The notes below the pieces were generated by a model. That model was not told the DNA's origin and ran no database searches. It worked only from the letters and a program-made list of their open reading frames with translations. Both the position numbers and the translations under genes were made by a program. From a virus (taxonomy: Duplodnaviria; Caudoviricetes): 50,864 nt of DNA. Shown piece after piece: positions 3,637-17,301 of this stretch; the first letter of the stretch is position 1, and each line of letters opens with the position of its first letter. The stretch is taken from positions 1 through 50,864 of the IMG/VR virus record IMGVR_UViG_3300021062_000004; one strand, given 5' to 3'.

Positions 3637-3637
3637 G

Positions 3638-4039: not shown

Positions 4040-4982
4040 CGCCGCCGCCGACCTTCGGGAACGAATGGAGCAACTGGCAGGCCGTACTTACGTTGAACCC
4101 GCCGCCGCCGGCCGCACGCTCGCGGAGCGGCAAAACTACCTGATCGGGCAACGCAACCAGCTTCCGACACTGCCGCCGGCCGGGAATGTCGCGTTGGCCC
4201 AGCGGCAGTTGCAAGGCTCTCGCCGGGCGGGCGAACCGGACGACGTGTATGGCGGGCGGCTCGCGGCTCGTGGATTCCAGCCGGATGAAGTCAGCGACTT
4301 CATGTCCAACCAACCGTTCCGGCCCGTGCCGGTGAAACAGTCTGCCGTTGCGTCCGCACCCCAGCCGCAACGTCAATCACAATTCTCCCGTGGCGTGTAC
4401 CAGCGTCCGCAACCGCAGGCAGGCCCCATCACGCCCGGCTCCGCGAGGGCGTTGGGGATTCAGACGCCGAAGGATCAGGAAGCCATCGGTCGGCAGTTCG
4501 CGGCAACTCGGGCGGCCGCACGCGACCGGGAAGGCTCATTGGCGATGCTGGATGCTTTTCACGGCGTCCGCAAGTTCGAGAAGCAGCACTATGACCGGTT
4601 CGCCAAGCTGGCGGACCATGTGAATCCAAACGAAATGCGGCTGCTGCTCGACCAATTTGACGAAGGCGGGAAAAAGGGTCCGTCCCTCTCGGACATCGAG
4701 CGGTTCGTGGTGTGGCCGAAGAACGAGGCGGGCGAGCCGATGTACCCGGAGGACCCCAAGGAACTGACGCGGCTGTACGAGGATGCCCGGCAGCGGCTTG
4801 AGGACTTCCAGCGGCGTGGCGGAACAGGGTCGACCGCACAGGCCGCACCCCAGCAGTCATGGACGCAGCAGGACATTGAATCATTGGCGGCCCAAATCGC
4901 CGGCGAGATTCGGGCGAGCGGCAGGCAGCCGACTCCGAAGGACATCCGCGACGAACTGGCGAGACGAGGAGTGCGACGATGA
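4023..4982 (+). CDS. Putative internal virion/ejection protein
   Basis: AAGGAGG upstream of ATG 4023; Ala/Gln/Arg-rich; precedes large internal proteins. Confidence 0.6.
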   Translation: MPRIYDAAADLRERMEQLAGRTYVEPAAAGRTLAERQNYLIGQRNQLPTLPPAGNVALAQRQLQGSRRAGEPDDVYGGRLAARGFQPDEVSDFMSNQPFRPVPVKQSAVASAPQPQRQSQFSRGVYQRPQPQAGPITPGSARALGIQTPKDQEAIGRQFAATRAAARDREGSLAMLDAFHGVRKFEKQHYDRFAKLADHVNPNEMRLLLDQFDEGGKKGPSLSDIERFVVWPKNEAGEPMYPEDPKELTRLYEDARQRLEDFQRRGGTGSTAQAAPQQSWTQQDIESLAAQIAGEIRASGRQPTPKDIRDELARRGVRR

Positions 4983-5206
4983 ACACCTGCAAGACGTGCA
5001 AGCATTGGGAGCACCCACGAAGGCGGGAGCATCGGCCTGAAGCACAATGGGGAGCATGTAATTGCAGAGCCGCGACTGACGATATCGCAATGGAGTGGCC
5101 AGGGGACGGAGAGTTGCACACCGTCAGCATCTTCGGCTGCATCCACCATGAACCCAAGAGTGGGCCGCATGGCGATAACTGCCAATGCGTGCTCTGTCTT
5201 CACTGA
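4979..5206 (+). CDS. Small Cys/His protein (CxTCKHW..GxC..FGCxHxEPK)
   Basis: AGGAG upstream, ATGA overlap; motif shared with 15080-15406. Confidence 0.7.
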   Translation: MNTCKTCKHWEHPRRREHRPEAQWGACNCRAATDDIAMEWPGDGELHTVSIFGCIHHEPKSGPHGDNCQCVLCLH

Positions 5207-5208
5207 CC

Positions 5209-7671
5209 ATGAGCACCCTCGACATCGACAGTGCGATTGAGAAGGCCCTGAAGCCGCCGGACGACGGTGGGCTGGACATCGATGGGGCCATTGAGCGAGC
5301 GTTGTCGCCGGCCCCGCAGGGACTCTACGGGTCCGCCCAAGTCTCTCTCGGCGGCGTCCAAGCCCCTCCCACGCCCGCCGGATATGAGCCTGCCGTCCAA
5401 TCCTACGTCCGCGACAACACCGCCGACGTGCCGCAGTGGGTGAAGGACATCGAGGCATCGGTCGGCATCATCGCGGAATCATTCCCCCGCCAGCGGCCGC
5501 AGCCTGACCGCTCCATCCCCGGCGAGATGGCCAGCCAGTTCACCGCAGGCCTCATGGGCGACCTGCCGCGTGGCATCGGCGGCGTGGCCCAGATGGCCGG
5601 CGACATGTTCCCGGAGTCGGAGATTGCCCAGACGGTGGGACGGCTTGGCGGGGCTTACGCTTCGGCAGGGGAAAGCGTGGGCCGTGCATTGCCGCCATCA
5701 GACCCCGGTGAACTGACCGGCCGCAGCATCGCCGGTGGCGTCTCCCGAGCCACCCCACAAATTGTCGGACAGGCTGGCTTGGCCTGGGCCACCGGCGGCG
5801 GCAGCGTGCCTGCACAACTTGCCATCTTCGGAGGCACGGCGGCGGCACCCGTCGTCGGCCAGCAATACCGCGACGCACTGGCGTACTACGAAGTGAATCA
5901 TCCGGACATGGACCCGCAGGAGATGCAGGAGCGGGCCAGGACGGAGGCGGGTGCGGCGGGACTCATCACCGCCGGCACATCGATTCTGCCGGGCCTGGCG
6001 ATGCTCCAGCGTGTGCCCGGTGCGTCCACGGTCCTGAGCAACGCCGCGTCGCGGGTCATCCAGTCCGCCGCCGGGGAAGGCATCCAGGAGATGTCCGAGC
6101 AGGTGCTGACGGACACCGTGGCGTCCATCGTCCGCGAGGACCCCCAGCTCTGGCAGCAGATCAGGAGCCTTAACCCGGAGTATTGGGATGGGGTGCTTCA
6201 CGCGGGCCTGATTGGGGCATTGACGGGCGGGGCGGTGAGGGGTGGGGTGGAGGCTCTGGGTCGCCAAGCTCAAGAGCAAGCCGACACAAAGCCGCATTTG
6301 ACCTCCGAACCTGTGCCTTTATCCACTCTGGATAGTGAAAGTGAACCTCTTGAAGGTAGATTTTCTGTTCCATCGTCTACTCCGGGTGCGGGGGTTCGGG
6401 AACAATCCGCCCTTGAGCGTCAAAAAGAACCCCCGACCTCTTCAAGTCGTCAAGGAGCCATCGTCGAAACCGAATCCGGTCAAGTCGCCTCATCGCAGGA
6501 GAGTTCAGACGCTTCTCCAATCGACATACAAACGCCCACACCGAAGCGTAAACCGCAATCGCAATCAGGCTCCACATCCCCCAATCCTATCACCCGCTCC
6601 GCCGACGAGCCATCGCCGCAAGGACCACGCACGACCAAGGCGGAATTGTTGGCTTCAAAGGCCGAGGTTGAAAAGTCGCAGGGCAAGCGATACGCCGACA
6701 AAATGGCGAATCAGCGGTTTCGTCTGCTATCGAAGAACCCTGATGAGATTCACGAGTATCGCGTTGCCGGTTATGTCACACGTTCGATGAAAGGCGACAA
6801 GTACACCCTGCATCTGGTTTCGGACACAGACAGCAAGGATTGGCGGATCGCTGACACCATCGACGTAACAGACCAGTATGTGAAGGCTCCCTCTACTGAT
6901 ATATCTACGCAAACACCTTCAAAACCGGCTCCAGAAAATCCAAAATCCATCGAGCGTGCCAAGGACGAGCCATCGCCGGAGGGCATGACCTCCGCCCGCA
7001 AGGTGGACATCAACCGGGACCGAGAGGCGTTGGGCCTCAACTCTCTCGATTCTCCCGAACGCCGCACATGGAAATCGGTGCTGGAGACGGCACAGAATGA
7101 GTACGACAAAGAGAAGGTGGACGACTTCGCCGCCGAGCTTGTCAGGAAACCACAGGCTATCGACGACAAGCAGACTGCACCGCTGGTCATCCGTTCGGCG
7201 GAACTGAAGAACGAGTACCGCGAACTCAAGGCGAAGATGGCCGCGACCACCGACCCAGCGGAAATCGCCGTGTTGTCCGCCGAGATGAACCGCAAACAGG
7301 ACAAGTACGATGTCGTGTCGCAGGCCATGCGTCAATCCCGCTCTGCCATCGCTCGCGGACTGACATTCAGCAAGGCCACCATTGACGAGGATTTTGACCT
7401 CATCTCCGTCAAGTCCCGTGCCAAGGCAGCTAAGGGGAAGGCGTTGACGCCGGCCGAGTCCAAGCGGTTCGAGGAGCTGACCAGCCAGCTTGAGGCCAAG
7501 ACGCGGCAGGTGGCGGCGTTGGAGAAGCGGGTGAACGAGCAGACGGCGATGCGGGCAGTGAAGCAGAGGAACCGCTTCAGCAAGATGAGCAAGGCCGAGC
7601 GGGACGTGGAGTTGGAGGGGTTGAAGGCGAAGGCGTTGGAATTGTTGAGGGCGGGATGTGGAGTGAACTGA
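5209..7671 (+). CDS. Large internal virion (ejection/polyvalent-type) protein, N-terminal part
   Basis: About 820 aa; Gly/Ala hydrophobic helices with EGIQEMSEQ motif, low-complexity linker, coiled-coil C-terminus. Confidence 0.7.
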   Translation: MSTLDIDSAIEKALKPPDDGGLDIDGAIERALSPAPQGLYGSAQVSLGGVQAPPTPAGYEPAVQSYVRDNTADVPQWVKDIEASVGIIAESFPRQRPQPDRSIPGEMASQFTAGLMGDLPRGIGGVAQMAGDMFPESEIAQTVGRLGGAYASAGESVGRALPPSDPGELTGRSIAGGVSRATPQIVGQAGLAWATGGGSVPAQLAIFGGTAAAPVVGQQYRDALAYYEVNHPDMDPQEMQERARTEAGAAGLITAGTSILPGLAMLQRVPGASTVLSNAASRVIQSAAGEGIQEMSEQVLTDTVASIVREDPQLWQQIRSLNPEYWDGVLHAGLIGALTGGAVRGGVEALGRQAQEQADTKPHLTSEPVPLSTLDSESEPLEGRFSVPSSTPGAGVREQSALERQKEPPTSSSRQGAIVETESGQVASSQESSDASPIDIQTPTPKRKPQSQSGSTSPNPITRSADEPSPQGPRTTKAELLASKAEVEKSQGKRYADKMANQRFRLLSKNPDEIHEYRVAGYVTRSMKGDKYTLHLVSDTDSKDWRIADTIDVTDQYVKAPSTDISTQTPSKPAPENPKSIERAKDEPSPEGMTSARKVDINRDREALGLNSLDSPERRTWKSVLETAQNEYDKEKVDDFAAELVRKPQAIDDKQTAPLVIRSAELKNEYRELKAKMAATTDPAEIAVLSAEMNRKQDKYDVVSQAMRQSRSAIARGLTFSKATIDEDFDLISVKSRAKAAKGKALTPAESKRFEELTSQLEAKTRQVAALEKRVNEQTAMRAVKQRNRFSKMSKAERDVELEGLKAKALELLRAGCGVN

Positions 7672-7844
7672 TGGGACATCATCCAGTACAAATCTCAAAA
7701 CATGGCCCAAAACTGGGCAGGAAGGCACGGAAAACCTACAAAGCCAGAGCGAAGCGATGGATGCGTAGGCTTGCAAACATTCTGCTAGAGGACGGGCCGA
7801 ACCGCTATCAGTATTCACGCACAACATGGTGGGACTGGAGTTGA
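7671..7844 (+). CDS. Small basic hypothetical protein (57 aa)
   Basis: TGATG overlap with upstream stop; Lys/Arg-rich; ends 3 nt before next ATG. Confidence 0.6.
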   Translation: MGHHPVQISKHGPKLGRKARKTYKARAKRWMRRLANILLEDGPNRYQYSRTTWWDWS

Positions 7845-7847
7845 TGA

Positions 7848-9536
7848 ATGGCCAAACGCATCGACTGCTCCGAACTCTCCCGTACCCTCCACGACCTCGC
7901 CCTCAACGTCGGCTCACGCGAGCACGTCAGCACGTTCGCGGACCTGACGCGGGAGATGCAGGCCGTGCTCGGCGAGGACATGATCGACGCCGACCGGCTC
8001 GCGGCGTCCATCGTCGAGGCCACGACCGGGGCCGCACAGGAGCAGTCCGAGCTTCAGTCGAAGCTGAACCGGCTCAAACGTGAGGCACGGCAATTCCACA
8101 ACCGCACCGAGCCGCAACTGCGGGAGAAGTTCGCCAGGCAGATCGACGAGTTGAAGGGCAAGCTCCGCAGTCCGGCCGTGGCACCCGTGCGGCGTGAGAG
8201 CGTGACGCTGAGCAAGGCCCTGGAGCGGCAGGCGTTCGAGCGGGACCTGCTCCGACGCAAGATTCATCAGCGTATCCAGGACCTCAAGCCGCTCACCATC
8301 ATGCAGAAGGTGATGGAGCCGATTCACTTCCAGCGTGCGGCGTTCTTCGGCATGGACTTCGGGCAGGTTCTCCAGCACGGGAAGATGGTCCTGGTCAGCC
8401 ATCCGCTGCTGTCCATCAAGAATCTGCCGCAGATGTTCAAGTCGTTCGCCAGCGAGGGGGCGGCACACAAAGCGGACAAGGCCATCGAAGACCATCCGCT
8501 GGCCCCGCTGGCCTACCGAGCCAAGCTCAGCCTGTCCACGGACTACGGCAGCAACGTGTCCAAGGAGGAGTATTTCCAAGGGCACTTCGCCCATCGGATG
8601 CCCGGCATCAAGCACTTCGCCAGGGCCTTCCGCGTGTTCCTCAACGCCGTGAGATTCCAGTCCTTTGTCACGGCGGTCAACTCGTGGACCATCGGCGGGG
8701 AAGCCACGGACGCGGAAGCAAGGATCATCGCCAACTTCATCAACGTGACGACCGGACGCGGAGCCATCCCGGACAAGATTGTCTCCGCCGTGAACGCTTC
8801 GAGCGTCCTGGTCAACGCCGCACGCTACCAAACCTCGCGTGCCCAGTTCATCATCGGGCAGCCGCTCTGGGGCGTCTTCGGCTCCCATCGCGGCAGTGCG
8901 AAGGCCAGGGCATGGGTCGCCAAGGAGTACGCACGCACCATCATCGGGTGGGCCTTGTACCAGGGCATGCTCTATTCGGCGTTTTACCTGTGGTGGGAGC
9001 AGTCCGGCGAAGACGAGGAAAAGAAGCCGAAAATCGAAGCCAACCCCCTATCGTCGGACTTCGGAAAGATTCGCATCGGCAACACTCGCATCGACACCAC
9101 GGCGGGCATCGGGCCGTGGATCACGTTCATGTCCCGCTCCGTTCGCGGCATGACCAAGCAGCGGGACGGAGACATTGTTCCCATTCGGGGCAAGGACGTG
9201 CCGTACGGCGGACATGCCTGGGACTACTTCGCGTTCAACTTCGCCCGCAACCGTATGGCCCCGGCTCCAGGGGCCATCGTGGACGGCCTACGCGGCACCA
9301 CGCCGGACGGGCAAGAGGCCACGCTCATGCGGCTGCTGCAACAGAACTTCGTCCCGCTTGGTCCACGCAGCGTCTATGACGCCATGCGGGAGGAAGGCTT
9401 GGACAAGGGAAGCGTGCTGGGTGCCATGGCCATGTTCGGCGAGGGCGTCAGCGTGTGGGAGGATCGGGAGCAGCAGGGCAAGCCACGTCGGAAGCCGGCG
9501 AGGCCGAAGCGGCCGGAGCGGCCAAGCCCTGGTTGA
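7848..9536 (+). CDS. Large internal virion protein, C-terminal part (polyvalent/LPD-like)
   Basis: 562 aa; PLSSDFGKIRIGNTRID and APAPGAIVD..G segments resemble C-termini of phage large polyvalent proteins. Confidence 0.65.
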   Translation: MAKRIDCSELSRTLHDLALNVGSREHVSTFADLTREMQAVLGEDMIDADRLAASIVEATTGAAQEQSELQSKLNRLKREARQFHNRTEPQLREKFARQIDELKGKLRSPAVAPVRRESVTLSKALERQAFERDLLRRKIHQRIQDLKPLTIMQKVMEPIHFQRAAFFGMDFGQVLQHGKMVLVSHPLLSIKNLPQMFKSFASEGAAHKADKAIEDHPLAPLAYRAKLSLSTDYGSNVSKEEYFQGHFAHRMPGIKHFARAFRVFLNAVRFQSFVTAVNSWTIGGEATDAEARIIANFINVTTGRGAIPDKIVSAVNASSVLVNAARYQTSRAQFIIGQPLWGVFGSHRGSAKARAWVAKEYARTIIGWALYQGMLYSAFYLWWEQSGEDEEKKPKIEANPLSSDFGKIRIGNTRIDTTAGIGPWITFMSRSVRGMTKQRDGDIVPIRGKDVPYGGHAWDYFAFNFARNRMAPAPGAIVDGLRGTTPDGQEATLMRLLQQNFVPLGPRSVYDAMREEGLDKGSVLGAMAMFGEGVSVWEDREQQGKPRRKPARPKRPERPSPG

Positions 9537-9540
9537 TGAT

Positions 9541-9711
9541 TCAATTGGGCAACTCCCGTCGGCATGTCACGCAGTACACCTTCCGCATCCGCTTCGCCTC
9601 CAGCTCGGCGAGCTGGCGTTGCACCAGTTGCTCATGGCACCGGTCCCACGCCTCATTGTCACGCCGCATCTGCTCGGGCGAACGCGGGGCGTAGGCGTTG
9701 AGGAAGTCCAT
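9541..9711 (-). CDS. Small hypothetical protein with C-terminal CxxC
   Basis: MDFLNAY.. 56 aa, co-oriented just downstream of TerS-like gene. Confidence 0.5.
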   Translation of the reverse strand: MDFLNAYAPRSPEQMRRDNEAWDRCHEQLVQRQLAELEAKRMRKVYCVTCRRELPN

Positions 9712-9725
9712 GAATAGGGAGGCGG

Positions 9726-10055
9726 TCAAGATGCCTGATCCCCCTCCCGCTTGAAGCTCCGCTCGCCCCGCTGCACGCGGACGACGTGAACTTCCGCCTG
9801 GACGTTGGCGTTGACGGTCTGGGCAGGCGTACCCTCCAGCCGGTCAAACAGGTACTTCCAGAATTGGAAGTCGCCCGCTTCCGCAGCCGCAATGCCCGCT
9901 TCCACGATGGCTTGGGCACGGCCGGGGTTCTCGTTGAGAACTTTTCTGATACGGTCAGACAGCCCAAACGTCCCAGGCGGTTTGCCGGCAGGATTGCCGG
10001 AAACCCCTGGTGGGAAAGGCTTTAGGTTCGCAAGGCTCTTGGGATTGACGGCCAT
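9726..10055 (-). CDS. Terminase small subunit-like protein (DUF5681-type N-terminus)
   Basis: NPKSLANLKPFPPGVSGNPAGKP N-terminus and YLFDRLEGTPAQTV C-terminal motif. Confidence 0.75.
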   Translation of the reverse strand: MAVNPKSLANLKPFPPGVSGNPAGKPPGTFGLSDRIRKVLNENPGRAQAIVEAGIAAAEAGDFQFWKYLFDRLEGTPAQTVNANVQAEVHVVRVQRGERSFKREGDQAS

Positions 10056-10102
10056 CTCTGCTAATCGTTGAAAGAATCTTCAGAAAATCTTACCACAACC
10101 TA

Positions 10103-10132
10103 TTGACAAGTCCAGTGGTGGTGGCACAAGAT
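10103..10132 (+). promoter_or_regulatory. Putative sigma70 promoter for the structured region
   Basis: TTGACA 10103-10108, 18-bp spacer, weak -10 CAAGAT. Confidence 0.45.
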
Positions 10133-10225
10133 GTTGAAGGTGAACCACAAACCGCACATTTCCGCCGCCAGCCCGTCACGCCTGGTTCACCAACCAGACG
10201 GGGGCGGTGTTTTTGCCTTCAGCAT
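10131..10225 (+). ncRNA. C4/CI-like antisense or attenuator RNA hairpin
   Basis: Bulged hairpin 10162-10207 followed by TGTTTTT; apical TGGTTCACC complementary to upstream GGTGAACCA (10139-10147); enclosed by 10131-10140/10216-10225. Confidence 0.5.
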
Positions 10226-10299
10226 AAGGAGGCAATTGTCCGACACGTATTCAAATAACATGGGTTCCCCCGCACCGTTGAAGCGGGACAATCAAACTT

Positions 10300-10935
10300 A
10301 CGAGGGACAGCGATGGAGTAAGCGCGCTGTGCTCTTTCCCGCCCGCCCTCTTCACTGAGCTTGAACAGAATCACGGCGGCAATCTCCGTGTGAAAAGTGA
10401 AAAGGCCCCTACGGGACCCGTTCCATGAGTCCCATAGGGGGTTGCCCATCAGCGAAGGCTGAGGTCATGCTGTCTCAGCATGGCCCGAAGCCAACGCCAA
10501 AGGGCGTAAAGGGCAGAAAGGCGGGTACGCACGTGGTACCTCCTCTCTCAAAGTGGCCCCGGCCAGCCGCCGGGTTCTACTCATGCCCGCCCCTCTTCAC
10601 TGAGCGGTGGGCGTTTTCCCCGCCGATCCCGGTGACCCCGGCCTGAGGCGGCACAACTTGACAGCCAGGTCCACGGATGGACTGCTCCTCAGGGAGCCGT
10701 GGAGGCAATAAGGCGTGGCCTCGCAGAACTTACGCCAGAGCATGTTCAAGACGTGTGGAACTAGACCCTACCGCACGCCAGTCTCAAGACTGCACTATTC
10801 GTGTGTATCGGTGAGCCGCATTGCTCCGGCTGAAATGGTGAAAACACACGCAACCGACCGTACCGACCGACTGACGGCATGGCGGACTCCTGTCAAGCAC
10901 AGGGTCTGCTCTCCCTTCTCTCTCTCCCTCTGGCA
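10300..10935 (+). ncRNA. Candidate large structured RNA or origin region
   Basis: More than ten inverted repeats back to back, a multibranch element and a long-range pair 10360-10367/10743-10750; no convincing ORF. Confidence 0.5.
10585..10617 (+). terminator. Terminator-like hairpin inside the structured region
   Basis: GCCCGCC..CTC/GAG..GGTGGGC then GTTTT. Confidence 0.45.
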
Positions 10936-10975
10936 TGTGCGGCATTCGCCGCAAGTGCAGCAACACCAACAGGTT

Positions 10976-11389
10976 ATGACGATGGCCAAATATCCGCGAC
11001 AATACAAATGCTTGAAGTGTCTCCGCATCATCACGTTGCAAAGGTGGTTCGCGAAGTATGAGACGATTCTGTGTCCGGAGTGTGGCGGCAAGAACAGTCT
11101 GAGCCGGGAATATTTGCACAAGGAGGTCCCGGCTCATGCTTTGATGGGTGACAGGCCTCAAGCTCCGAAGTCTGCTTCGCTTTCCCGCGAATCCCTGGAT
11201 TCCCGCTGGTCCGCGTTGTTCCCGGAGTTGGACGGGATCGGGAAGAAAGAGCATGAATCCGCTCCCGTCGTCACGGACGCGACGCGTCAAGCTCAATTCG
11301 ACCCGTTGGCGGACCCGCCATTTGTTCCGACACATCGCGAGGCGTGGAACACGCACCCGCGTTGGTCGCACTTGCCGGCGTCAGGGTGA
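10976..11389 (+). CDS. Zinc-ribbon protein
   Basis: CLKC..CPECG; start at 10976 or 10982. Confidence 0.65.
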   Translation: MTMAKYPRQYKCLKCLRIITLQRWFAKYETILCPECGGKNSLSREYLHKEVPAHALMGDRPQAPKSASLSRESLDSRWSALFPELDGIGKKEHESAPVVTDATRQAQFDPLADPPFVPTHREAWNTHPRWSHLPASG

Positions 11390-11698
11390 CTCTATGTGAA
11401 CCTCGTCGATTGGCGGCTCCGGCCCGGCATTCTTGATCCAGAATGTGCAAAGGCCGTCTCGCTCCAGCTCGGCCAGATGATGCGTCTCCGGCTCGCTCTT
11501 GGGTTCGTGATGAACCTCCTTGAGACCTGGCGGCTTGATGATGAAACGATTGCAGTAGACCGGGCCGACTTCAATCCACGCGACTTCGCCGTCTCGGCGG
11601 ATGACCAAAGCGACCGGCTTGTCGCCTTTGAACCCGACGCCGCAGCAGATGGCCTCTTCCTCCATGAATCGGCAGGGACATGGGAAGATGTGTTTCAT
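11381..11698 (-). CDS. Hypothetical protein (105 aa)
   Basis: MKHIFPCPC..; ATGA overlap with stop of 11695-11919; GGAGG upstream. Confidence 0.55.
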   Translation of the reverse strand: MKHIFPCPCRFMEEEAICCGVGFKGDKPVALVIRRDGEVAWIEVGPVYCNRFIIKPPGLKEVHHEPKSEPETHHLAELERDGLCTFWIKNAGPEPPIDEVHIESP

Positions 11699-11919
11699 CT
11701 TGAAGCCTCCATGGCCGGTCGCCCTGCCTTCGGCCGCTTGAGCTTCTTCAACGCATTCCGCTTGATGAGCACGCGGGACTCTCCCGCCGTCCACCACACC
11801 TCGACCACGCCCGACTCGATGTACCTCCACATCGTCGGCACGCTCACCCCCGCAATCTTTGCGGCCTCCTGCGGCGTGAAATAATCTGAGATATTTTTCT
11901 TGATTTGCTCTTGACTCAT
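11695..11919 (-). CDS. Excisionase/MerR-like helix-turn-helix protein
   Basis: YFTPQEAAKIAGVSVPTMWRYIESG motif; basic GRP tail. Confidence 0.8.
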   Translation of the reverse strand: MSQEQIKKNISDYFTPQEAAKIAGVSVPTMWRYIESGVVEVWWTAGESRVLIKRNALKKLKRPKAGRPAMEASR

Positions 11920-11956
11920 GTCGAGAAGACTGTATCATGTTTTCAGTCAGAGTCAA
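11911..11956. promoter_or_regulatory. Overlapping opposed sigma70 promoters
   Basis: Plus strand TTGACT-N16-TATCAT (11911-11938); minus strand TTGACT-N16-TACAGT (11956-11929). Confidence 0.65.
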
Positions 11957-11971
11957 CAAGGAGAAACGGAC

Positions 11972-12157
11972 ATGTACGCGATTCAAGTGACAGACCAGAT
12001 GCCAGGATGGGCTTGGCGAATCCGTGGTTGCTATCCAAAGGAACGCACCACGATTGTCAAGGCTCGCGACCGTGAGCAGCTTCGGCGGCGTGTCCACCGC
12101 CTGAAAGAGACCTGGCGGATTGACCGCGTGTGGCACGTGAAGGGTACGGATTATTGA
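11972..12157 (+). CDS. Hypothetical protein
   Basis: AAGGAG then ATG; first gene after promoter. Confidence 0.7.
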   Translation: MYAIQVTDQMPGWAWRIRGCYPKERTTIVKARDREQLRRRVHRLKETWRIDRVWHVKGTDY

Positions 12158-12212
12158 CACCCACCAATCCCCCGCCCCGACGTGAGGTCGGAGACACGAG
12201 GAGAACAGGAAA

Positions 12213-12356
12213 ATGCGAACCCAATTCATCAACTGCAAGACCATGAGAGACGCAAAGCGTCAGGCTCCGTGGGCCGCGAAGATTGTCAAGGTCGAAGGCG
12301 GCTACAAGGCCTTCGAGTCCATCGCCGACTACGAAACCTGGAAACGGCAGAAGTGA
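12213..12356 (+). CDS. Small phage protein (47 aa, APWAAKIVKVEGGYKAFES)
   Basis: Translated by hand (below ORF-track cut-off); GAGGAG/AGGA upstream. Confidence 0.75.
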   Translation: MRTQFINCKTMRDAKRQAPWAAKIVKVEGGYKAFESIADYETWKRQK

Positions 12357-12396
12357 CTGATTGACCCTCGCCCGAGCAAACACGAGGAGACATGAC

Positions 12397-12576
12397 ATGA
12401 AAACCGAGCATTCCAAGTTCACGATTCAAGCTGACCGATGGGTGACAAGCGAGGGTGAGTGGCAGGTGTTCCGCATTGTGAACAAGGTAGGAGCCACCAT
12501 CGCTCAGACCAGCGACGCATTTTGGGCCGATTTCATCATGAAGGCGGCCAATGACCTTGCGAAAGTGACTGATTGA
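12397..12576 (+). CDS. Hypothetical protein
   Basis: GAGGAG then ATG; bounded by repeats. Confidence 0.7.
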   Translation: MKTEHSKFTIQADRWVTSEGEWQVFRIVNKVGATIAQTSDAFWADFIMKAANDLAKVTD

Positions 12577-12654
12577 CCATCGCCCGCCCCCACCCCTTCA
12601 CGCGGTGGGCCAGGGCATCGGCCAATAGGGGACGATGAGACAAAGGGACAGAAC

Positions 12655-13008
12655 ATGCCTGATTACCTCGTATCGAAGCTTGCCGCAATTCTTCAACGTG
12701 CCCATGCCGCTGCGGTTGCCGCTGATCCTGGCGAGGGCAACGACGGCGGAACCTGCAACATGGACACTCCTGCGTTCCGCATCGACCGGGTAAAAGAGAC
12801 GACGATTCAGAAAGCCGCGAATCTGGCTGGCGTCGAGGTCATGCGATTTGGTTGGCTTGGCCGGGATTCGTGGTACTGGCTTCGCGTTCCCCTGCTCGGC
12901 CAAGGCAACCGGCGGTCGACGATGATGAAGGCGGCACAGAAGGTTCTCAATGATTCCGCTCCGCAAATCCCCGGCTTCCACGCCTGCGGCTACTACCAGA
13001 TGGATTGA
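12655..13008 (+). CDS. Hypothetical phage protein (DGGTCNMD motif)
   Basis: 117 aa; bounded by repeats. Confidence 0.75.
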   Translation: MPDYLVSKLAAILQRAHAAAVAADPGEGNDGGTCNMDTPAFRIDRVKETTIQKAANLAGVEVMRFGWLGRDSWYWLRVPLLGQGNRRSTMMKAAQKVLNDSAPQIPGFHACGYYQMD

Positions 13009-13080
13009 CCCTCGCCCCATTCCCCCACGGGGGAAGCGGGCATCGGCCAATGGTGGCGGATGAGACGAAAGGGATAAGAC

Positions 13081-13383
13081 GTGAGCAAACCTCGAAAGAT
13101 TGAAGTGCTTGAGGAGTTGGCCCGTACCCTCGTGGGCGATGCCAAGGGACCCAATATCTACTTTGTCACGGACCAGGGCGTCGTCGTGACCATTACTCGG
13201 TCGTTTGAACTTGCATACACCGAGTGGCGTCAACTGTCCCGACGTACGCCGCGTGTTGAATCGGCATTGGAGGACCGCAAGTTTGGAGTCATTGCCTCAG
13301 TTGCACCGGAGAGCGATGGGCCGGACGCCAAACTGCGAGTCTCTGACGATTCAGCGATGGCTGGATATCAAATCCACGTCTGA
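13081..13383 (+). CDS. Hypothetical protein
   Basis: GTG at same position in the repeat as the ATG of the previous gene. Confidence 0.7.
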   Translation: MSKPRKIEVLEELARTLVGDAKGPNIYFVTDQGVVVTITRSFELAYTEWRQLSRRTPRVESALEDRKFGVIASVAPESDGPDAKLRVSDDSAMAGYQIHV

Positions 13384-13446
13384 CTATCCCTTGGCCCAGG
13401 CCCCCGGCCTCACCCGCCGGGCCTGGGCCTGTCTTGAAAGGAGAAT

Positions 13447-13674
13447 GTGATGGCAAACGCACTCAAGCAGGAATTGATTGGCAAGCTGGTTCGTGTCGGC
13501 TCGTGGCCGCAACCGGTCCGTGTCATCAATGGGTCTGGGGCGTACACGTTCACCACCGGGCAGGCACTCATATGCCGCGATGAGCGGACTGGCGAGCAAC
13601 GCCGTTTCGAGGGATGGGACGTTGAGTCAATCGTGGACGAGCCGCTGACCGCCCCCACGGCGACGGAGGACTGA
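13447..13674 (+). CDS. Hypothetical protein
   Basis: AAAGGAG upstream. Confidence 0.7.
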   Translation: MMANALKQELIGKLVRVGSWPQPVRVINGSGAYTFTTGQALICRDERTGEQRRFEGWDVESIVDEPLTAPTATED

Positions 13675-13716
13675 GGACTGACCCGCCTCCCGCCCGGAGG
13701 CAGAAAGGTGTGACGA

Positions 13717-13896
13717 ATGGAAAAGACTCAATGGCTTGTGCCGATGCGATTGACAATCTACACGCAAGTTCGGGTTGAGGCTGCGTCGTCCGAAGAGGCA
13801 AGGTCGCTCGCAAAGAGTTTCGTGACGATTGACGATGGACGACAAGTCGCCGAGTGTGTCTATCCTGAGGTGATCGGCGAAGCTGTCGAAGTCTGA
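13717..13896 (+). CDS. Small protein with VEAxSxEEA motif (59 aa)
   Basis: Translated by hand: MEKTQWLVPMRLTIYTQVRVEAASSEEARSLA..; AAAGGTG upstream. Confidence 0.7.
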   Translation: MEKTQWLVPMRLTIYTQVRVEAASSEEARSLAKSFVTIDDGRQVAECVYPEVIGEAVEV

Positions 13897-13928
13897 CCCC
13901 ACCCCACCCCCGGCGGAGGAGTGAAGCG

Positions 13929-14204
13929 ATGAGCAATGCGAATCCAAGTCCGCAGCAGCGTATGTTTCCAATCGGAAGCTTCATTCGTCCGAATGATGAG
14001 GCGATGCGACGCGGATTGTTTCCGTTGCGTGGACGGGTTAAATTGGGATTTGTTTCAAGATACTGTGCCGACCCTTGGTGCGTGTATTACAAGAAGAATC
14101 CATGGACCAAAGGGAACGGCCATGTGATTTGCGTCAAATTCATAGAATTGGACTCACAAGATGCTGCTACCCAAAATATCGGAAGCACTGAACCAGTGCA
14201 TTGA
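13929..14204 (+). CDS. Hypothetical protein
   Basis: GGAGGAG upstream. Confidence 0.65.
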   Translation: MSNANPSPQQRMFPIGSFIRPNDEAMRRGLFPLRGRVKLGFVSRYCADPWCVYYKKNPWTKGNGHVICVKFIELDSQDAATQNIGSTEPVH

Positions 14205-14418
14205 CGCTTCGGAGTGCTACAAGAATGAGCCTCCGTCATTCGAGCAGGTCGCGATTGCTCGCCGCATGGCGGATGTGCTGCCAAAGGCGTTCATTTTGTT
14301 GGAGGTCATTCGCGACAATCCCCATGCGGACCGGGACGATTGCAAATCATTCGCCAAGCTTGCGATGAACATAATCATGGACACCGCTGACCCGCCCGCC
14401 CCAGGAGTGAAGCGATGA
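14161..14418 (+). CDS. Hypothetical protein, paralogue of 14811-15080
   Basis: Shared LxP(K/R)IxEALN..ARR....LPK. Confidence 0.65.
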   Translation: MLLPKISEALNQCIDASECYKNEPPSFEQVAIARRMADVLPKAFILLEVIRDNPHADRDDCKSFAKLAMNIIMDTADPPAPGVKR

Positions 14419-14633
14419 GCAGGCGGTACATAACCTTCGAGCAGATTGAGCAGCACGCCGCCGGAATCGACAGGCAAATCGCTTACCACGAGCAGAAGGT
14501 ACGCGAACTAAATCATATGAAGAAATATCTTGCCGACTTGGTGGCGAAACACCTCGTTCTTATGAACGAAGATGAACCCATTGCCGCCGAATGTGAAACC
14601 TCTGACCCGCCCGCCCACAGGAGCAGGACATGA
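14415..14633 (+). CDS. Small coiled-coil protein
   Basis: AGGAG, ATGA overlap. Confidence 0.65.
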   Translation: MSRRYITFEQIEQHAAGIDRQIAYHEQKVRELNHMKKYLADLVAKHLVLMNEDEPIAAECETSDPPAHRSRT

Positions 14634-14809
14634 GCGACAAACTGATTCACCGCGTCGAGATGCTCATCGACGATGAATGGGTTCCCGTGTTCAAAGGAGA
14701 TCATGCGGACCGCGAGGCTGCGGAGAATTGGAAGAAAATCCGCGAGGACATGCACCCGAATCACCCGCACCGCATCATCTCGTTCGACCCATCGACAGCA
14801 AGGATTTGA
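14630..14809 (+). CDS. Hypothetical protein (59 aa)
   Basis: Translated by hand: MSDKLIHRVEMLIDDEWVPV..; AGGAG, ATGA overlap. Confidence 0.65.
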   Translation: MSDKLIHRVEMLIDDEWVPVFKGDHADREAAENWKKIREDMHPNHPHRIISFDPSTARI

Positions 14810-14810
14810 C

Positions 14811-15080
14811 ATGCCCCTCTCACCCCGAATCGTGGAAGCGTTGAATGACGTACTTGGTAAAGCGGAGTACTCAATATCACACGCCAATTCCGACTGGCAG
14901 TATAACAAAGACATGCCAAAACTTCGCCTCGCCCGTCGCGTCGTGGAGGCGTTGCCGAAGGTGAATGAGACGCTCGTCGACCTCAGAGAGTATCTCAGAA
15001 GTTACGGACATTCTGATGTGATTGAGTGGGTGGACGAAGCCCTCTCCGCACTCCGCGAGGCGGGGGAGGTGAAGGCGTGA
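14811..15080 (+). CDS. Hypothetical protein, paralogue of 14161-14418
   Basis: MPLSPRIVEALN..; starts 1 nt after upstream stop. Confidence 0.7.
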   Translation: MPLSPRIVEALNDVLGKAEYSISHANSDWQYNKDMPKLRLARRVVEALPKVNETLVDLREYLRSYGHSDVIEWVDEALSALREAGEVKA

Positions 15081-15406
15081 TGTTGACAGTAAAGATTGGA
15101 CTCGGCCGGAGGACTCAATTCTTCGTCGACGACCGTGAAGTGGATGAGCAAACGTGGCTCAAGGTCCATGATGAGCTTGGCATTCCGCGTCCGGTCGAGG
15201 AGGTTCCGAAGCGGTGCAGGACGTGCAAGCATTGGCACAGGAGCGACCATCAAATCGCGTTCGTCGATGTCGGGCAATGCAATCTCTTGGTGAACGACGA
15301 GATGCACAACTACGTATGTGTGCCGACGTGGAAGGCTCAGGAAGAATTGCCGCATCCACTCACCGACGCCAGTTTCGGATGCACCCACTGGGAACCCAAA
15401 CCTTGA
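15080..15406 (+). CDS. Cys/His protein related to 4979-5206
   Basis: GGAGGTG, TGATG overlap; CRTCKHW..GQC..FGCTHWEPK. Confidence 0.7.
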   Translation: MLTVKIGLGRRTQFFVDDREVDEQTWLKVHDELGIPRPVEEVPKRCRTCKHWHRSDHQIAFVDVGQCNLLVNDEMHNYVCVPTWKAQEELPHPLTDASFGCTHWEPKP

Positions 15407-15430
15407 CCCTCCCCCAGCCCGACTACACCA

Positions 15431-15775
15431 ATGAGCACTGAAATAACCGTTCCTATAGGAATCGAGAAGCTGTCCAACATGATGTGTGGCTGCGGCTGCA
15501 ACGAACTTGCTTGGAGAGCCATTCTTGCCGCACTGGAACGGGCAGCCAGCGACGGCAAGCGGTCGCCGCTACCGGACGACGGCCATGTGTGGATGCTGCA
15601 CTACGTGCTTGATTACGCGAAGCTGACTGAGCACGGCAGCAACATTCAATGGGCATGGATTACCGATGAGGGGAGAGGCGTGTTGGATTTTCTCCGACAG
15701 TACGGAGAGGATTGGAAGGACTCCAAGGAAATCGAGTTTTTAGCGAGCGACGGATGCGTGCTCAGCAACATTTGA
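15431..15775 (+). CDS. Hypothetical protein flanked by an 18-bp direct repeat
   Basis: CGCG and EHGSNI..AWITDEG motifs; repeats at 15413 and 15776. Confidence 0.7.
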   Translation: MSTEITVPIGIEKLSNMMCGCGCNELAWRAILAALERAASDGKRSPLPDDGHVWMLHYVLDYAKLTEHGSNIQWAWITDEGRGVLDFLRQYGEDWKDSKEIEFLASDGCVLSNI

Positions 15776-16146
15776 CCCAGCCCGACTACACCACGGCGGA
15801 GATGGCGAAGCTGGCGGGCGTCAGCATGACCATCATCCAACGCCGCTGCGGCGAGCTTCGCCAGAAATACGGCTCCTTCGGCCGCATGCGGGCCGGGTTC
15901 TGGCTGTTCACCCGCGAGGAGGCCCAGCAGGTGCTTGCGATGGGGCCGGGCAAGCGAGGCCCGCGTCCGCCCGCCGACGCCAAGGAGTCCTATTCCGTCC
16001 GCGACCTGGCGGGCATCATCGGCATCCCCGAGTGGAAAGTCCGCGATCGGGCCGAGCGGCTTGGGCACGGGACCGTCCGCGACGGCCGGCTCGCCTTCAC
16101 CTACCACGAGATGAAGATGATGGTTCGCCGCGAGCGAAAGCGGTGA
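15772..16146 (+). CDS. Tandem helix-turn-helix protein
   Basis: YTTAEMAKLAGVS and YSVRDLAGIIGIP; TTG overlaps upstream stop. Confidence 0.7.
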   Translation: MTQPDYTTAEMAKLAGVSMTIIQRRCGELRQKYGSFGRMRAGFWLFTREEAQQVLAMGPGKRGPRPPADAKESYSVRDLAGIIGIPEWKVRDRAERLGHGTVRDGRLAFTYHEMKMMVRRERKR

Positions 16147-16149
16147 CGC

Positions 16150-16665
16150 TCACGGCGGGTTCTGCATGTTGAAAAGCTCGCGGTCAATTTCAATGACCTG
16201 CTCGTCAATCGAGCGAACCTCCATGTCCAGCCGTTCGATGTTCAGGGTGAGTCGCTGTCGCGTATCCGGGTCGCCGTTGCTCATCTCGCTTTGGAGTTGA
16301 TAGCGGGCGTTCACGATTTGAATCCGTTTGGAGTTCAGTGCGTTCTTCTTGGCAATCAGGGCGTTCTTTCGATTTGTCGCCTTGATGGTTTGGGCGACCG
16401 AACCCGGTGATGGCTGCGTCGCGGCCGAGTCCGGGTTCGCAATCTGCTCCAGGAGTTCATTCAGCTTTTTGACGGCCAGAGTGTCTTCCAGCCTGGAAGA
16501 CTCAAGGGCGGCAACTCGCTCTTGCAGCAGGCGGACTTCAATTTCAAGATCGCCAATTCTCTTGACGGGGGATTTTGTCCTCTCCTGGGGCTTGTTGTCC
16601 CAAGAGGAAAGGCCAGCCAATGCCCCAATCGCGACCACCATCGCAATCCACTTCAACGGCTTCAT
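16150..16665 (-). CDS. Membrane-anchored/secreted coiled-coil protein (possible lysogenic conversion or exclusion)
   Basis: N-terminal hydrophobic segment then heptads; co-oriented with repressor-like gene. Confidence 0.65.
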   Translation of the reverse strand: MKPLKWIAMVVAIGALAGLSSWDNKPQERTKSPVKRIGDLEIEVRLLQERVAALESSRLEDTLAVKKLNELLEQIANPDSAATQPSPGSVAQTIKATNRKNALIAKKNALNSKRIQIVNARYQLQSEMSNGDPDTRQRLTLNIERLDMEVRSIDEQVIEIDRELFNMQNPP

Positions 16666-16690
16666 GTTTTGCCCCTTTCATTTTGAACAA

Positions 16691-16723
16691 CCCGGCGGGT
16701 CCAAAGGCGGGTTACCCGCCGGG
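16691..16723. terminator. Strong GC hairpin
   Basis: CCCGGCGGGT / ACCCGCCGGG 10-bp inverted repeat. Confidence 0.55.
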
Positions 16724-16868
16724 TCACATGGAGGAGGTCATGCCGACTCCTCCTGGCACTTCCGCCTCAGCTCCTCTTCGTCCGATAACCACTTTGCAAT
16801 TGCTGTCATGCCCTCCGTGTCGATCCTGGCAATGGGTCCTTCCTCTTCGCCCCGGCCATCCCACACAT

Positions 16869-17204: not shown

Positions 17205-17211
17205 CGTGCGT

Positions 17212-17295: not shown

Positions 17296-17301
17296 ATCCG
17301 T

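What the first reader, a model, noticed from the sequence alone, without database searches (positions are those of the whole stretch)
10300..10935. About 650 nt of near-continuous secondary structure: candidate large ncRNA or RNA-primed origin
Seen: hairpins at 10302-10334, 10372-10390, 10406-10440, a multibranch at 10443-10515 (including GGTCATGCTG/CAGCATGGCC), 10558-10574, 10585-10612, 10671-10702, 10752-10777, 10779-10792 and 10800-10850. There is also a long-range pair CTTGAACA/TGTTCAAG (10360/10743), tandem ACCGACCG at 10853-10869 and a pyrimidine tract at 10909-10931. Several stems use G-U pairs on the plus strand. It is the largest non-coding gap in the genome, and I see no initiator, helicase or primase. 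Inference: an undescribed structured RNA, possibly a ColE1-like replication primer gated by the upstream switch. This is my best candidate for a new system.
Basis: partly seen in the sequence, partly recalled or inferred. Interest (0 to 1): 0.85.

Follow-up and report, generated by a model that had tools for sequence, protein, structure and literature searches.

The report
Terminator-rich regulatory spacer in a temperate phage
The 0.9-kb gene-free stretch is real, but only about a third of it is unusually structured, and it looks more like a boundary region where opposing phage transcripts end and overlap than like one large new RNA or a replication origin.

Summary
The window is a complete 50.7-kb temperate phage from soil: integrase at 25008-25973, with a tRNA 3' fragment beside it. 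Positions 10056-10978 show no coding signal, no Rfam match, no tRNA and no protein-family hit. Structure beyond shuffles is limited to 10395-10625 (z -5.2 plus, -5.9 minus; 0 of 200 shuffles) and a plus-strand hairpin at 10163-10209. Positions 10300-10394 and 10621-10935 match shuffles, and the 8-nt long-range pair is chance.

The structured parts include three terminator-like hairpins: T1 (+) at 10163-10214, T2 (-) at 10440-10390, which tops the tool's terminator-like listings, and T3 (+) at 10583-10619. T2 and T3 face each other, so opposing transcripts would overlap by about 230 nt across a strongly folding 73-nt element.

No homologue of the DNA was found in 123 related loci, the IMG/VR and JGI pattern scans or 802 genomes. 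No RNA run was available, so covariation and transcription remain untested.

Best reading (0.5): a regulatory boundary with convergent terminators and 3'-overlapping transcripts. A discrete new RNA or antisense pair stays possible (about 0.2). The ColE1-like primer idea has no support.

One oddity: the genome's only GCGC sites lie here, 2 against about 336 expected.

The parts
10056..10978 (.). Gene-free spacer. It lies between the minus-strand DUF5681 gene and the plus-strand Zn-ribbon ORF.
   Evidence: Codon log-odds are at or below zero in all six frames. Eight gap ORFs gave no Pfam match and only two PHROGs matches at E 0.17-0.18. No Rfam family reached its gathering score and no tRNA was found.
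10087..10132 (.). Candidate back-to-back promoter pair with abutting -35 boxes. Plus: TTGACA-18-CAAGAT at 10103-10132. Minus: TGGACT-16-TAAGAT at 10114 down to 10087. Inferred only.
   Evidence: Found by my relaxed scan, below the threshold of the tool's own scan. The density of such sites is not above the genome background (3 per kb here, 1.2 per kb genome-wide). The site lies in a stretch of 43% G+C.
10163..10214 (+). T1, a bulged 16-bp hairpin followed by UGUUUUUG. It would be a plus-strand intrinsic terminator or attenuator.
   Evidence: Folding energy is -26.6 kcal/mol, z -3.1, with 0 of 200 shuffles as good. For 10056-10299 the plus-strand local-hairpin z is -2.55 against -0.6 on minus.
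10236..10358 (+). A 40-codon ORF behind AAGGAGG, with the ribosome-binding site inside a hairpin. Doubtful as a gene.
   Evidence: Listed. The enclosing 75-aa frame has a codon score of 1.9 and no homologue.
10322..10327 (.). GCGCGC, within the 8-bp palindrome AGCGCGCT. These are the only two GCGC sites in the genome.
   Evidence: 2 observed against about 336 expected.
10346..10360 (+). Copy 1 of the exact 15-nt direct repeat CCCTCTTCACTGAGC. It follows GCCCGCCC and has no 3' stem arm.
   Evidence: An exact 15-mer repeat arose in 2 of 1000 shuffles of the gap.
10390..10440 (-). T2, a 14-bp hairpin (10440 down to 10406) followed by CCUUUUCACUUUUCAC. The tail is the (GTGAAAA)x2 repeat on the plus strand. 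It would be a minus-strand intrinsic terminator.
   Evidence: First in the tool's listing of terminator-like sites for 1-20000, with the most stem pairs (14) of the 47 sites the tool listed across the genome. Energy is -27.1 on minus (z -4.2) against -22.5 on plus, where the G-U pair becomes a C-A mismatch. TRF result.
10443..10515 (.). A 73-nt strongly folding element. On the plus strand it forms a three-way junction. On the minus strand it forms a long irregular hairpin of about 24 bp.
   Evidence: Energies are -37.9 and -37.7 kcal/mol, z -4.9 and -4.7, with 0 of 200 shuffles on either strand. The 10-bp stem has a U-G pair on plus that becomes an A-C mismatch on minus.
10516..10582 (.). Two further hairpins: GGTAC...GTACC and CCCGGC...GCCGGG.
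   Evidence: z -2.4 on plus and -1.8 on minus.
10583..10619 (+). T3, a hairpin with arms GCCCGCC/GGTGGGC, holding copy 2 of the 15-nt repeat in its loop and followed by GUUUUCC. It would be a plus-strand terminator. A hairpin with identical arms lies at 12582-12610 in the early operon.
   Evidence: Energy is -20.8, z -5.65, with 0 of 200 shuffles. The arm pattern matches 4 times (two plus-strand hairpins, plus one palindrome at 31945 counted on both strands) against 0.12 expected.
10621..10935 (.). Right-hand part with no structure beyond shuffles. It holds the ACCG repeat (10853-10875) and the 23-nt pyrimidine run (10909-10931). It is probably the 5' leader of the Zn-ribbon ORF.
9726..10055 (-). 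Flanking DUF5681 gene, followed by a 62-aa ORF at 9541-9729.
   Evidence: Pfam PF18932, E 5.2e-8, above its cut-off.
10979..11389 (+). Flanking Zn-ribbon ORF with a CxxC-x16-CxxC pattern. An orphan with a weak coding signal.
   Evidence: Pfam Zn_ribbon_8 at E 6e-4, below its cut-off. The only hit among 5.8 billion proteins is itself, called as 215 aa.
11381..11956 (-). Leftward unit that would run into the spacer. It comprises promoter TTGACT-16-TACAGT (11956 down to 11929), the HTH_17 gene (11919 down to 11695) and a 105-aa ORF (11698 down to 11381). T2 is the first strong minus-strand terminator downstream.
   Evidence: These are the two best sigma-70-like sites in the genome, 11911-11938 on plus and 11956 to 11929 on minus. 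HTH_17 scores E 3.5e-7. The only other minus-strand terminator candidate, at 10873-10851, gives z 0.15.

Best explanation
The stretch is a regulatory boundary between transcription units of a temperate phage. It is not one large RNA.

Shown:
- It is non-coding.
- Its excess structure is confined to a plus-strand hairpin with a U-run (T1) and to a core of about 230 nt.
- That core is bounded by a minus-strand hairpin with a U-run (T2) and a plus-strand hairpin with a U-run (T3).

Inferred:
- T2 ends the leftward transcript that starts at the strong promoter at about 11950 and covers HTH_17 and the 105-aa ORF. It thereby insulates, or attenuates entry into, DUF5681 and the 62-aa ORF.
- T1 and T3 end rightward transcripts. 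These would be late-operon read-through, a transcript from the weak promoter at about 10103, or both.
- Each terminator lies beyond the other, so the opposing RNAs would share about 230 complementary nucleotides (10390-10619). That span includes the 73-nt element.
- The overlap could allow duplex formation and RNase III-type decay, that is, antisense cross-talk between the two directions.
For: - No coding signal, no protein family and no homologue of the gap ORFs.
- Structure is local: 10395-10625 gives z -5.2 on plus and -5.9 on minus with 0 of 200 shuffles. 10300-10394 and 10621-10935 match shuffles.
- T2 heads the tool's listing of terminator-like sites for 1-20000 and has the most stem pairs of the 47 sites the tool listed across the genome. 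Its G-U pair and U-run are specific to the minus strand.
- T1 and T3 have plus-strand U-runs and plus-strand G-U pairs.
- T3 shares its exact stem arms with a hairpin at 12582-12610 inside the plus-strand early operon. The arm pattern occurs 4 times against 0.12 expected, which ties T3 to plus-strand transcription.
- The genome's two best promoter-like sites lie at 11911-11956, one of them firing leftward toward the spacer.
- The spacer sits where the tail genes end (9536) and the regulatory and early genes begin.
Against: - No transcript ends are known. No RNA run holds the phage.
- Promoter-like sites inside the spacer are weak and no denser than the genome background.
- The 73-nt element (z about -4.8) and two more hairpins are not needed for termination, so they hint at something beyond terminators.
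- A leftward transcript ending at T2 would carry about 940 nt of non-coding RNA antisense to the Zn-ribbon ORF, which is unusual.
- The terminator-like site count in 9400-11600 is 5, against a shuffle mean of 2.1 (sd 1.6), so the excess is modest.
- My own genome-wide terminator scoring did not discriminate.
Confidence: 0.5

Rival explanations
1. The core is a discrete, undescribed structured RNA or a cis-antisense RNA pair.
- One candidate is a minus-strand RNA of about 210 nt (10601 down to 10396) ending at T2, with its 5' and 3' ends paired.
- The other is a plus-strand RNA ending at T3.
- Either would regulate the neighbouring units by base pairing.
For: - The core gives z -5.9 on minus and -5.2 on plus, and the 73-nt element gives z -4.9/-4.7.
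- In the minus-strand fold, a 10-bp helix joins AGUGAAGAGG (10601-10592, the complement of 15-mer copy 2) to CCUUUUCACU (10405-10396). This closes a 206-nt domain.
- The exact 15-nt repeat arose in 2 of 1000 shuffles.
- The genome's only GCGC sites are kept here, which suggests sequence constraint.
- Windows 10301 and 10401 rank 2nd and 4th of 506.
Against: - No homologue exists, so there is no covariation.
- No promoter was found just upstream on either strand.
- Both strands fold about equally well, as any set of DNA inverted repeats would.
- No Rfam family matched.
- I noticed no GNRA- or UNCG-type loops of the kind common in large folded RNAs. This was by eye only.
Confidence: 0.22
2. The stretch is, or contains, the phage replication origin. 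Replication might be primed by an R-loop from a transcript crossing the purine/pyrimidine tract.
For: - The 23-nt pyrimidine run is the longest in the genome, with 0 of 1000 shuffles reaching it. A minus-strand transcript across it would be purine-rich and prone to forming R-loops; this point rests on general knowledge and was not tested.
- No initiator, helicase or primase was recognised in the ORFs I scanned.
- A short ACCG repeat is present.
Against: - There are no iterons and no AT-rich unwinding stretch. The lowest-G+C windows lie at 11876 and 17200.
- GC skew is flat from 3 to 20 kb and shows no turn in the gap.
- Nothing matches RNA I or any other Rfam family.
- The pyrimidine tract lies in the part with no excess structure.
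- Many ORFs remain unannotated, so an initiator may exist.
Confidence: 0.06
3. The spacer encodes one or more small proteins. One form would be a prophage type I toxin-antitoxin pair with 3'-overlapping RNAs, as in bsrG/SR4.
For: - Four small ORFs sit behind AGGAG-type ribosome-binding sites.
- One of them is a 27-codon minus-strand ORF (10532 down to 10449) that stops 9 nt before T2.
- The convergent, overlapping layout and the prophage setting resemble bsrG/SR4. That system pairs a 294-nt mRNA with a 180-nt antisense RNA complementary to its 3' end, involves RNase III, and has its toxin genes on prophages (passages of PMC3834814).
Against: - None of the candidate peptides has a hydrophobic membrane segment.
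- Codon scores are about zero or negative.
- No homologues or families were found.
- By my rough estimate, which was not computed, such pairings of ribosome-binding site and start codon are expected by chance at this G+C.
Confidence: 0.07
4. The hairpins are leftover or chance features of decaying DNA, with no present function beyond ordinary terminators.
For: - The region is unique to this phage. The 80 relatives found through the tail protein share none of the neighbouring genes downstream of it: 13 of 16 window proteins hit 0 of 84 loci.
Against: - The core and its sub-elements give z of -5 to -6 with 0 of 200 shuffles.
- The exact 15-mer repeat and the retained GCGCGC argue for constraint.
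- The gap is itself depleted of GCGC. About 6 sites per kb would be expected and it has one locus, so it is not recent foreign DNA.
Confidence: 0.1
5. The stretch is the phage attachment site (attP). The two 15-nt direct repeats, 245 nt apart, would be integrase arm sites.
For: - The two identical non-palindromic 15-mers are 245 nt apart.
- The phage has a tyrosine integrase.
Against: - The integrase gene is 14 kb away, at 25008-25973.
- A tRNA 3' fragment, read by eye as T-arm plus acceptor strand, lies on the minus strand at about 24832-24868. It sits directly upstream of the integrase gene, in another highly structured non-coding stretch.
- Its 21-nt core recurs with one mismatch in 9 of 802 genomes, and the reversed control pattern matched none.
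- The gap has no tRNA-like match.
Confidence: 0.02

Closest known systems
Convergent intrinsic terminators and 3'-overlapping cis-antisense transcripts in prophages. An example is B. subtilis bsrG/SR4; passages of PMC3834814 were seen.
   Same: - Two terminator-like hairpins face each other, so the two RNAs would be complementary over their 3' parts (about 230 nt here).
- The setting is a prophage.
- The overlap is strongly structured.
   Different: - No hydrophobic toxin ORF is present.
- The transcripts are inferred, not observed.
- There is no sequence similarity.
ColE1 RNA II / RNA I primer control. This comparison is recalled; no paper was read.
   Same: - A non-coding region of several hundred nucleotides with possible transcripts on both strands.
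- No recognised initiator protein.
   Different: - In ColE1 the antisense RNA covers the 5' end of the primer. Here the overlap would be at the 3' ends.
- No Rfam RNA I match.
- No sign of an origin.
- Dependence on RNase H and Pol I cannot be tested here.
P4 CI and P1/P7 C4 immunity RNAs.
   Same: - A repeated short sequence (the 15-mer, twice) and a partly complementary element between the copies.
- That element is (GTGAAAA)x2. It pairs with the 15-mer at 8 of 9 positions on plus, and at 10 of 10 on minus counting one G-U.
- GGTGAACCA can pair with TGGTTCACC at the tip of T1.
   Different: - No processed small RNA is known.
- The folds favour the plain terminator hairpins.
- There is no homology.
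- A 9-10-nt complement is weak evidence.
Large structured RNAs of phages and bacteria held in Rfam, such as GOLLD, ROOL, HEARO, OLE and raiA. The names are recalled.
   Same: Non-coding, in a phage, several hundred nucleotides long, with many hairpins.
   Different: - None of the 4227 families reached its gathering score over the whole window.
- The best sub-threshold hit was DUF3800-XI at 23.1 bits, against a cut-off of 37.8.
- Only about 230 nt is significantly structured.
Repeated promoter/stem-loop cassettes between small early genes of phages, such as the 'PeSL' cassettes of T4-type phages. This comparison is recalled.
   Same: - T3 shares its arms with the junction hairpin at 12582-12610.
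- GCCCGCCC occurs 12 times against 5 expected, and many of the plus-strand copies lie at or near early-gene junctions.
   Different: - The gap holds no gene between the cassettes.
- The function of the cassettes in this phage is unknown.

Membership tests
Any curated Rfam family, including large phage-associated RNAs, RNA I, tmRNA, RNase P and introns | A covariance-model score at or above the family's gathering threshold | tested here: not met
   There were 0 matches over 50864 bases on both strands. With E <= 10 on 9900-11200 there were 5 sub-threshold matches, the best at 23.1 bits against 37.8.
Conserved structured non-coding RNA in general | Compensatory base changes across homologues | not testable with these tools
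   No homologue of the DNA was found.
- blastn and nhmmer against 123 loci gave a best E of 0.29.
- Model R1 on the window plus 99 of those 123 loci found only itself.
- The IMG/VR pattern scan gave 0 hits.
- The JGI pattern scan gave 1 unrelated hit.
- 802 genomes gave one 26-nt match, judged chance.
- The two source runs carry identical contigs.
Conserved structured non-coding RNA in general | Folding energy better than dinucleotide shuffles | tested here: met
   This is met only for 10395-10625 (z -5.2/-5.9) and for T1. It is not met for 10300-10394 or 10621-10935.
Intrinsic (Rho-independent) terminator | A G+C-rich hairpin followed at once by a U-run on the transcribed strand | tested here: met
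   - T2: 14 bp, then CCUUUUCACUUUUCAC.
- T1: 16 bp with bulges, then UGUUUUUG.
- T3: 9+3 bp, then a shorter GUUUUCC.
Actual termination was not measured.
ColE1-type RNA-primed origin | An antisense RNA complementary to the 5' part of a long preprimer | tested here: inconclusive
   The terminator positions imply overlap at the 3' ends, not the 5' ends. No transcript data exist.
ColE1-type RNA-primed origin | Primer processing by RNase H, a Pol I-dependent start, and autonomous replication of the fragment | not testable with these tools
   This needs bench work. GC skew gives no origin signal in the gap.
Type I toxin-antitoxin with 3'-overlapping RNAs | A small hydrophobic toxin ORF | tested here: not met
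   None of the 10 small ORFs that follow a ribosome-binding site has a hydrophobic segment. This was judged by eye.
Type I toxin-antitoxin with 3'-overlapping RNAs | Convergent toxin mRNA and antisense RNA that overlap | tested here: inconclusive
   This is inferred only from the facing terminators T2 and T3.
Phage attachment site (attP) | A position next to the integrase gene and a host tRNA fragment | tested here: not met
   The integrase gene is at 25008-25973 (PF00589, 45.9 bits against a 27.1 cut-off). The tRNA 3' fragment lies at about 24832-24868. The gap has no tRNA-like match.

The most novel reading that the evidence does not exclude
The core of about 230 nt (10390-10620) may encode a new kind of phage antisense module.
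- Two highly structured RNAs would overlap at their 3' ends. One variant is a single minus-strand RNA of about 206 nt whose ends pair.
- The duplex or fold would decide whether the leftward regulatory operon reads on into DUF5681 and the 62-aa ORF.
- The repeated 15-mer and the (GTGAAAA)x2 tail would act as pairing elements.
- The genome's only GCGC sites would have been kept because the sequence there is needed.
Probability: 0.2. Interest if true: 0.6.

Novelty: new member of a known kind. Interest (0 to 1): 0.3.

Why it matters
If the boundary reading is right, this is ordinary phage gene-regulation architecture in a very poorly known, widespread group of environmental phages. Relatives of the tail protein occur in at least 399 IMG/VR stretches. 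Its main value then is as an annotation aid.

If the core proves to be a discrete RNA or an antisense pair, it would be a new regulatory RNA from an uncultured temperate soil phage.

The one locus that escaped an otherwise near-total purge of GCGC sites is a cheap pointer to sequence under functional constraint. It is worth a bench test.

Tried and rejected
Homologue hunting gave nothing useful.
- blastn against the phage collection found no match.
- Single-protein locus searches with the 562-aa and Zn-ribbon proteins found none. The DUF5681 search gave 4 distant loci with no similar DNA.
- Of 80 IMG/VR and 39 GTDB loci fetched with the tail-protein alignment, none shares DNA with the gap. All-against-all comparison of their uncalled gaps showed no link to the window.
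- Rfam on 11 of those loci gave 0 matches.
- Model R1 (10402-10520) gave only weak hits. L066 scored 15.6 bits, E 0.19 in the 1.17-Mb search, on the opposite orientation relative to the tail gene, and I judged it noise. L101-L124 were not searched with R1.
- The JGI pattern scan gave one unrelated contig, L125.
- The 26-nt and 25-nt matches in two genomes appear to lie in coding-like sequence and look like chance.

No RNA holder was listed. Read laying showed one identical 50,767-nt contig in each of two soil DNA runs. These may be the source of the record, and they carry no variants.

The TTCAC motif is enriched in the core, with 6 copies in 490 nt, but other windows reach 7, so I dropped it. 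CTTCAC loops genome-wide showed no pattern.

My own terminator scoring allowed multibranch folds and did not discriminate.

The search for the tRNA-fragment pattern gave only one-mismatch hits: 8 of 401 genomes in the phylum of G001 and 1 of 401 in the phylum of G002. This is a weak host hint at best.

The paper search for DUF5681 listed one paper, and I saw only the listing. Supplements were not consulted.

I first ran Pfam, PHROGs and the Atlas on the 483-aa frame at 24572-26023. The overlapping frame at 25008-25973 carries the real gene.
Full report
CONTEXT

The window is a whole virus record of 50,864 bases. Its ends repeat 127 bases, so it is a circular assembly. It comes from soil DNA. 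Two runs each hold it as one identical 50,767-base contig, and no RNA run is listed.

Most genes lie on the plus strand. The large terminase subunit is at 37768-39261, and structural and tail genes run on across the record's start to 9536. A sliding clamp, a PDDEXK nuclease and a DNA methylase lie in the 21-29-kb region.

The frame at 25008-25973 is a tyrosine integrase (PF00589, 45.9 bits against a cut-off of 27.1). Just upstream, on the minus strand at about 24832-24868, I read by eye a tRNA T-arm plus acceptor 3' strand. That stretch is among the most structured in the genome (window 24901). The phage is therefore temperate, and its attachment site is most likely there rather than in the finding.

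THE INTERVAL

The spacer runs from 10056 to 10978. On its left is a minus-strand DUF5681 gene (9726-10055, E 5e-8), followed by a 62-aa ORF. On its right is a plus-strand ORF with a CxxC-x16-CxxC zinc-ribbon pattern (10979-11389). That ORF scores E 6e-4 against Pfam, below the cut-off. It has no relative among 5.8 billion proteins other than the source's own 215-aa call.

Evidence that the spacer is non-coding:
- A codon log-odds model trained on the phage's long ORFs gives no positive frame from 10056 to about 10960.
- Eight ORFs from the gap match no Pfam family, and only two PHROGs families at E 0.17-0.18, with a cut-off of E <= 1.
- The 75-aa and 73-aa ORFs have no homologues.
- No tRNA was found, and no Rfam family reached its threshold anywhere in the window.
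- A permissive scan of 9900-11200 gave five sub-threshold matches. The best was DUF3800-XI at 23.1 bits against 37.8.

IS THE STRUCTURE REAL?

The full 636 nt gives z -3.0 on plus and -4.0 on minus with 20 shuffles. The signal, however, is local:
- A local-hairpin energy sum gives z -3.6/-3.5 for 10300-10620 (0 of 200 shuffles) and +1.1/-0.05 for 10621-10935.
- By full folding, 10300-10394 gives -0.5/-0.05.
- 10395-10625 gives -5.2 on plus and -5.9 on minus (0 of 200 each).
- The 73-nt element at 10443-10515 gives -4.9/-4.7.
This is due to a bulged hairpin at 10163-10209.

In a genome-wide scan of 506 windows of 200 nt (15 shuffles each, so noisy), windows 10301 and 10401 rank 2nd and 4th by summed z. 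Window 24901 and 17301-17800 are comparable.

- The long-range 8-mer pair is chance: 2 observed against 2.96 in shuffles.
- The exact 15-nt direct repeat is not chance (2 of 1000 shuffles).
- The 23-nt pyrimidine run is not chance either (0 of 1000; the longest in the genome).

WHAT THE STRUCTURED PARTS LOOK LIKE

Three of them have the form of intrinsic terminators.
- T2 (10440 down to 10406, minus strand) has 14 continuous pairs and is followed by CCUUUUCACUUUUCAC. It comes first in the tool's listing for 1-20000 and has the most stem pairs of the 47 sites the tool listed across the genome. It is 4.6 kcal/mol more stable on minus, because a G-U pair there becomes a C-A mismatch on plus.
- T1 (10163-10209, plus strand) scores -26.6 kcal/mol and is followed by UGUUUUUG.
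- T3 (10583-10612, plus strand; -20.8 kcal/mol, z -5.65) is followed by GUUUUCC and has a plus-strand G-U pair. Its arms, GCCCGCC and GGTGGGC, recur exactly at 12582-12610 between two plus-strand early genes. The pattern is found 4 times against 0.12 expected.

GCCCGCCC is over-represented, with 12 copies against 5 expected. Many of the plus-strand copies lie at or near early-gene junctions. These links tie T3 to plus-strand early transcription.

TRANSCRIPTION AROUND THE SPACER (INFERRED)

The two best sigma-70-like sites of the genome overlap at 11911-11956. One fires rightward. The other fires leftward into an HTH_17 gene (11919 down to 11695, E 3.5e-7) and a 105-aa ORF (11698 down to 11381).

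Going on leftward, the first convincing minus-strand terminator is T2. The candidate at 10873-10851 has z 0.15.

A relaxed scan finds a weak back-to-back promoter pair at 10087-10132. It could serve DUF5681 leftward and a plus-strand RNA rightward. Such sites are no denser here than elsewhere.

T2 lies to the left of T3. A leftward RNA ending at T2 and a rightward RNA ending at T3 would therefore overlap over about 10390-10619.

BEST READING AND RIVALS

I take the region to be a boundary element in which opposing transcription units end. Their 3' ends may interact as antisense partners. I put this at 0.5.

The main rival, at 0.22, is that the core is itself a discrete RNA or an antisense pair.
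- For it: the 73-nt element and two further hairpins are not needed for termination.
- For it: the minus-strand fold closes a 206-nt domain with a 10-bp helix between the complement of 15-mer copy 2 and the tail of T2.
- For it: the genome's only two GCGC sites (2 against about 336 expected) sit at 10322-10327, while CCCGGG, GGGCCC, CTCGAG and CTGCAG are absent from the genome. That locus lies in the part with no excess structure, so the constraint may act on DNA.
- Against it: there is no promoter, no homologue and no strand preference.

An origin has little support (0.06). Skew is flat, and there is no AT-rich stretch and there are no iterons. Small proteins or a type I toxin pair get 0.07, because no hydrophobic ORF is present. 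attP gets 0.02, and no present function gets 0.1.

HOMOLOGUES

The tail protein next door has relatives at no more than 39% identity.
- The 123 loci fetched through the tail protein and through DUF5681 share no DNA with the gap.
- tblastn was run against the 84 loci held at that point (L002-L085). The 562-aa protein hit 80 of them and the 828-aa protein hit 24. DUF5681 hit only the 4 loci that had been fetched with it. The other 13 of 16 window proteins hit none.
- A covariance model of 10402-10520 found only itself in the window plus 99 of the 123 loci.
- Pattern scans of IMG/VR and of JGI metagenomes found nothing related.
- 802 genomes of two phyla gave one 26-nt match, which I judged to be chance.

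VERDICT

The interpretation as one large RNA or a ColE1-like primer is not supported, though a smaller novel RNA is not excluded. Interest is modest, at 0.3.

Noticed in passing
window 10322-10327 and genome-wide: Several palindromes are avoided to an extreme degree. GCGC occurs twice against about 336 expected, and both copies lie in AGCGCGCT inside the finding. GATC occurs 59 times against 241. CCCGGG, GGGCCC, CTCGAG and CTGCAG do not occur at all. This points to strong restriction pressure and one protected or constrained locus.
   Followed up: partly
window 24500-25973: A tyrosine integrase lies at 25008-25973 (PF00589, E 6.9e-12). It is preceded by a highly structured non-coding stretch (window 24901: z -5.1/-6.8). 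On the minus strand at about 24832-24868 that stretch holds a tRNA T-arm plus acceptor 3' strand, read by eye. This is the likely attP. The longer overlapping 483-aa frame at 24572-26023 is probably not the gene.
   Followed up: partly
window 11911-11956: The two best sigma-70-like promoters of the genome overlap back to back. One is TTGACT-16-TATCAT, firing rightward. The other is TTGACT-16-TACAGT with an upstream TG, firing leftward. The leftward one would start 2-3 nt before the HTH_17 start codon, giving a near-leaderless mRNA. The site lies in the lowest-G+C spot of the genome at 37%. It is a likely genetic switch.
   Followed up: partly
window 17300-17800 (+) and 16666-17587: This is a second stretch with little coding signal and strong plus-strand structure (z -5.3, 0 of 100 shuffles). 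Windows 17301 and 17601 give z -6.3 on plus only.
   Followed up: no
window 12351-13072, 14394, 14609, 18815: Junction cassettes recur between small early genes. A 24-nt unit sits at 12351, 12563 and 12995, and a 35-nt unit at 12613 and 13038. GCCCGCCC precedes ribosome-binding sites at 14394, 14609 and 18815.
   Followed up: partly
window 11001-11200 (-): The minus strand, antisense to the Zn-ribbon ORF, folds better than shuffles (z -2.9, with 2 of 200 shuffles as good). The plus strand does not (z 0.3 with 15 shuffles).
   Followed up: no
L006-L124: The 562-aa tail-region protein defines a large, diverse group of environmental phage contigs of 35-70 kb. At least 399 IMG/VR stretches carry a relative. 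Copies are binned into MAGs of many phyla, so host assignment by binning is unreliable.
   Followed up: no
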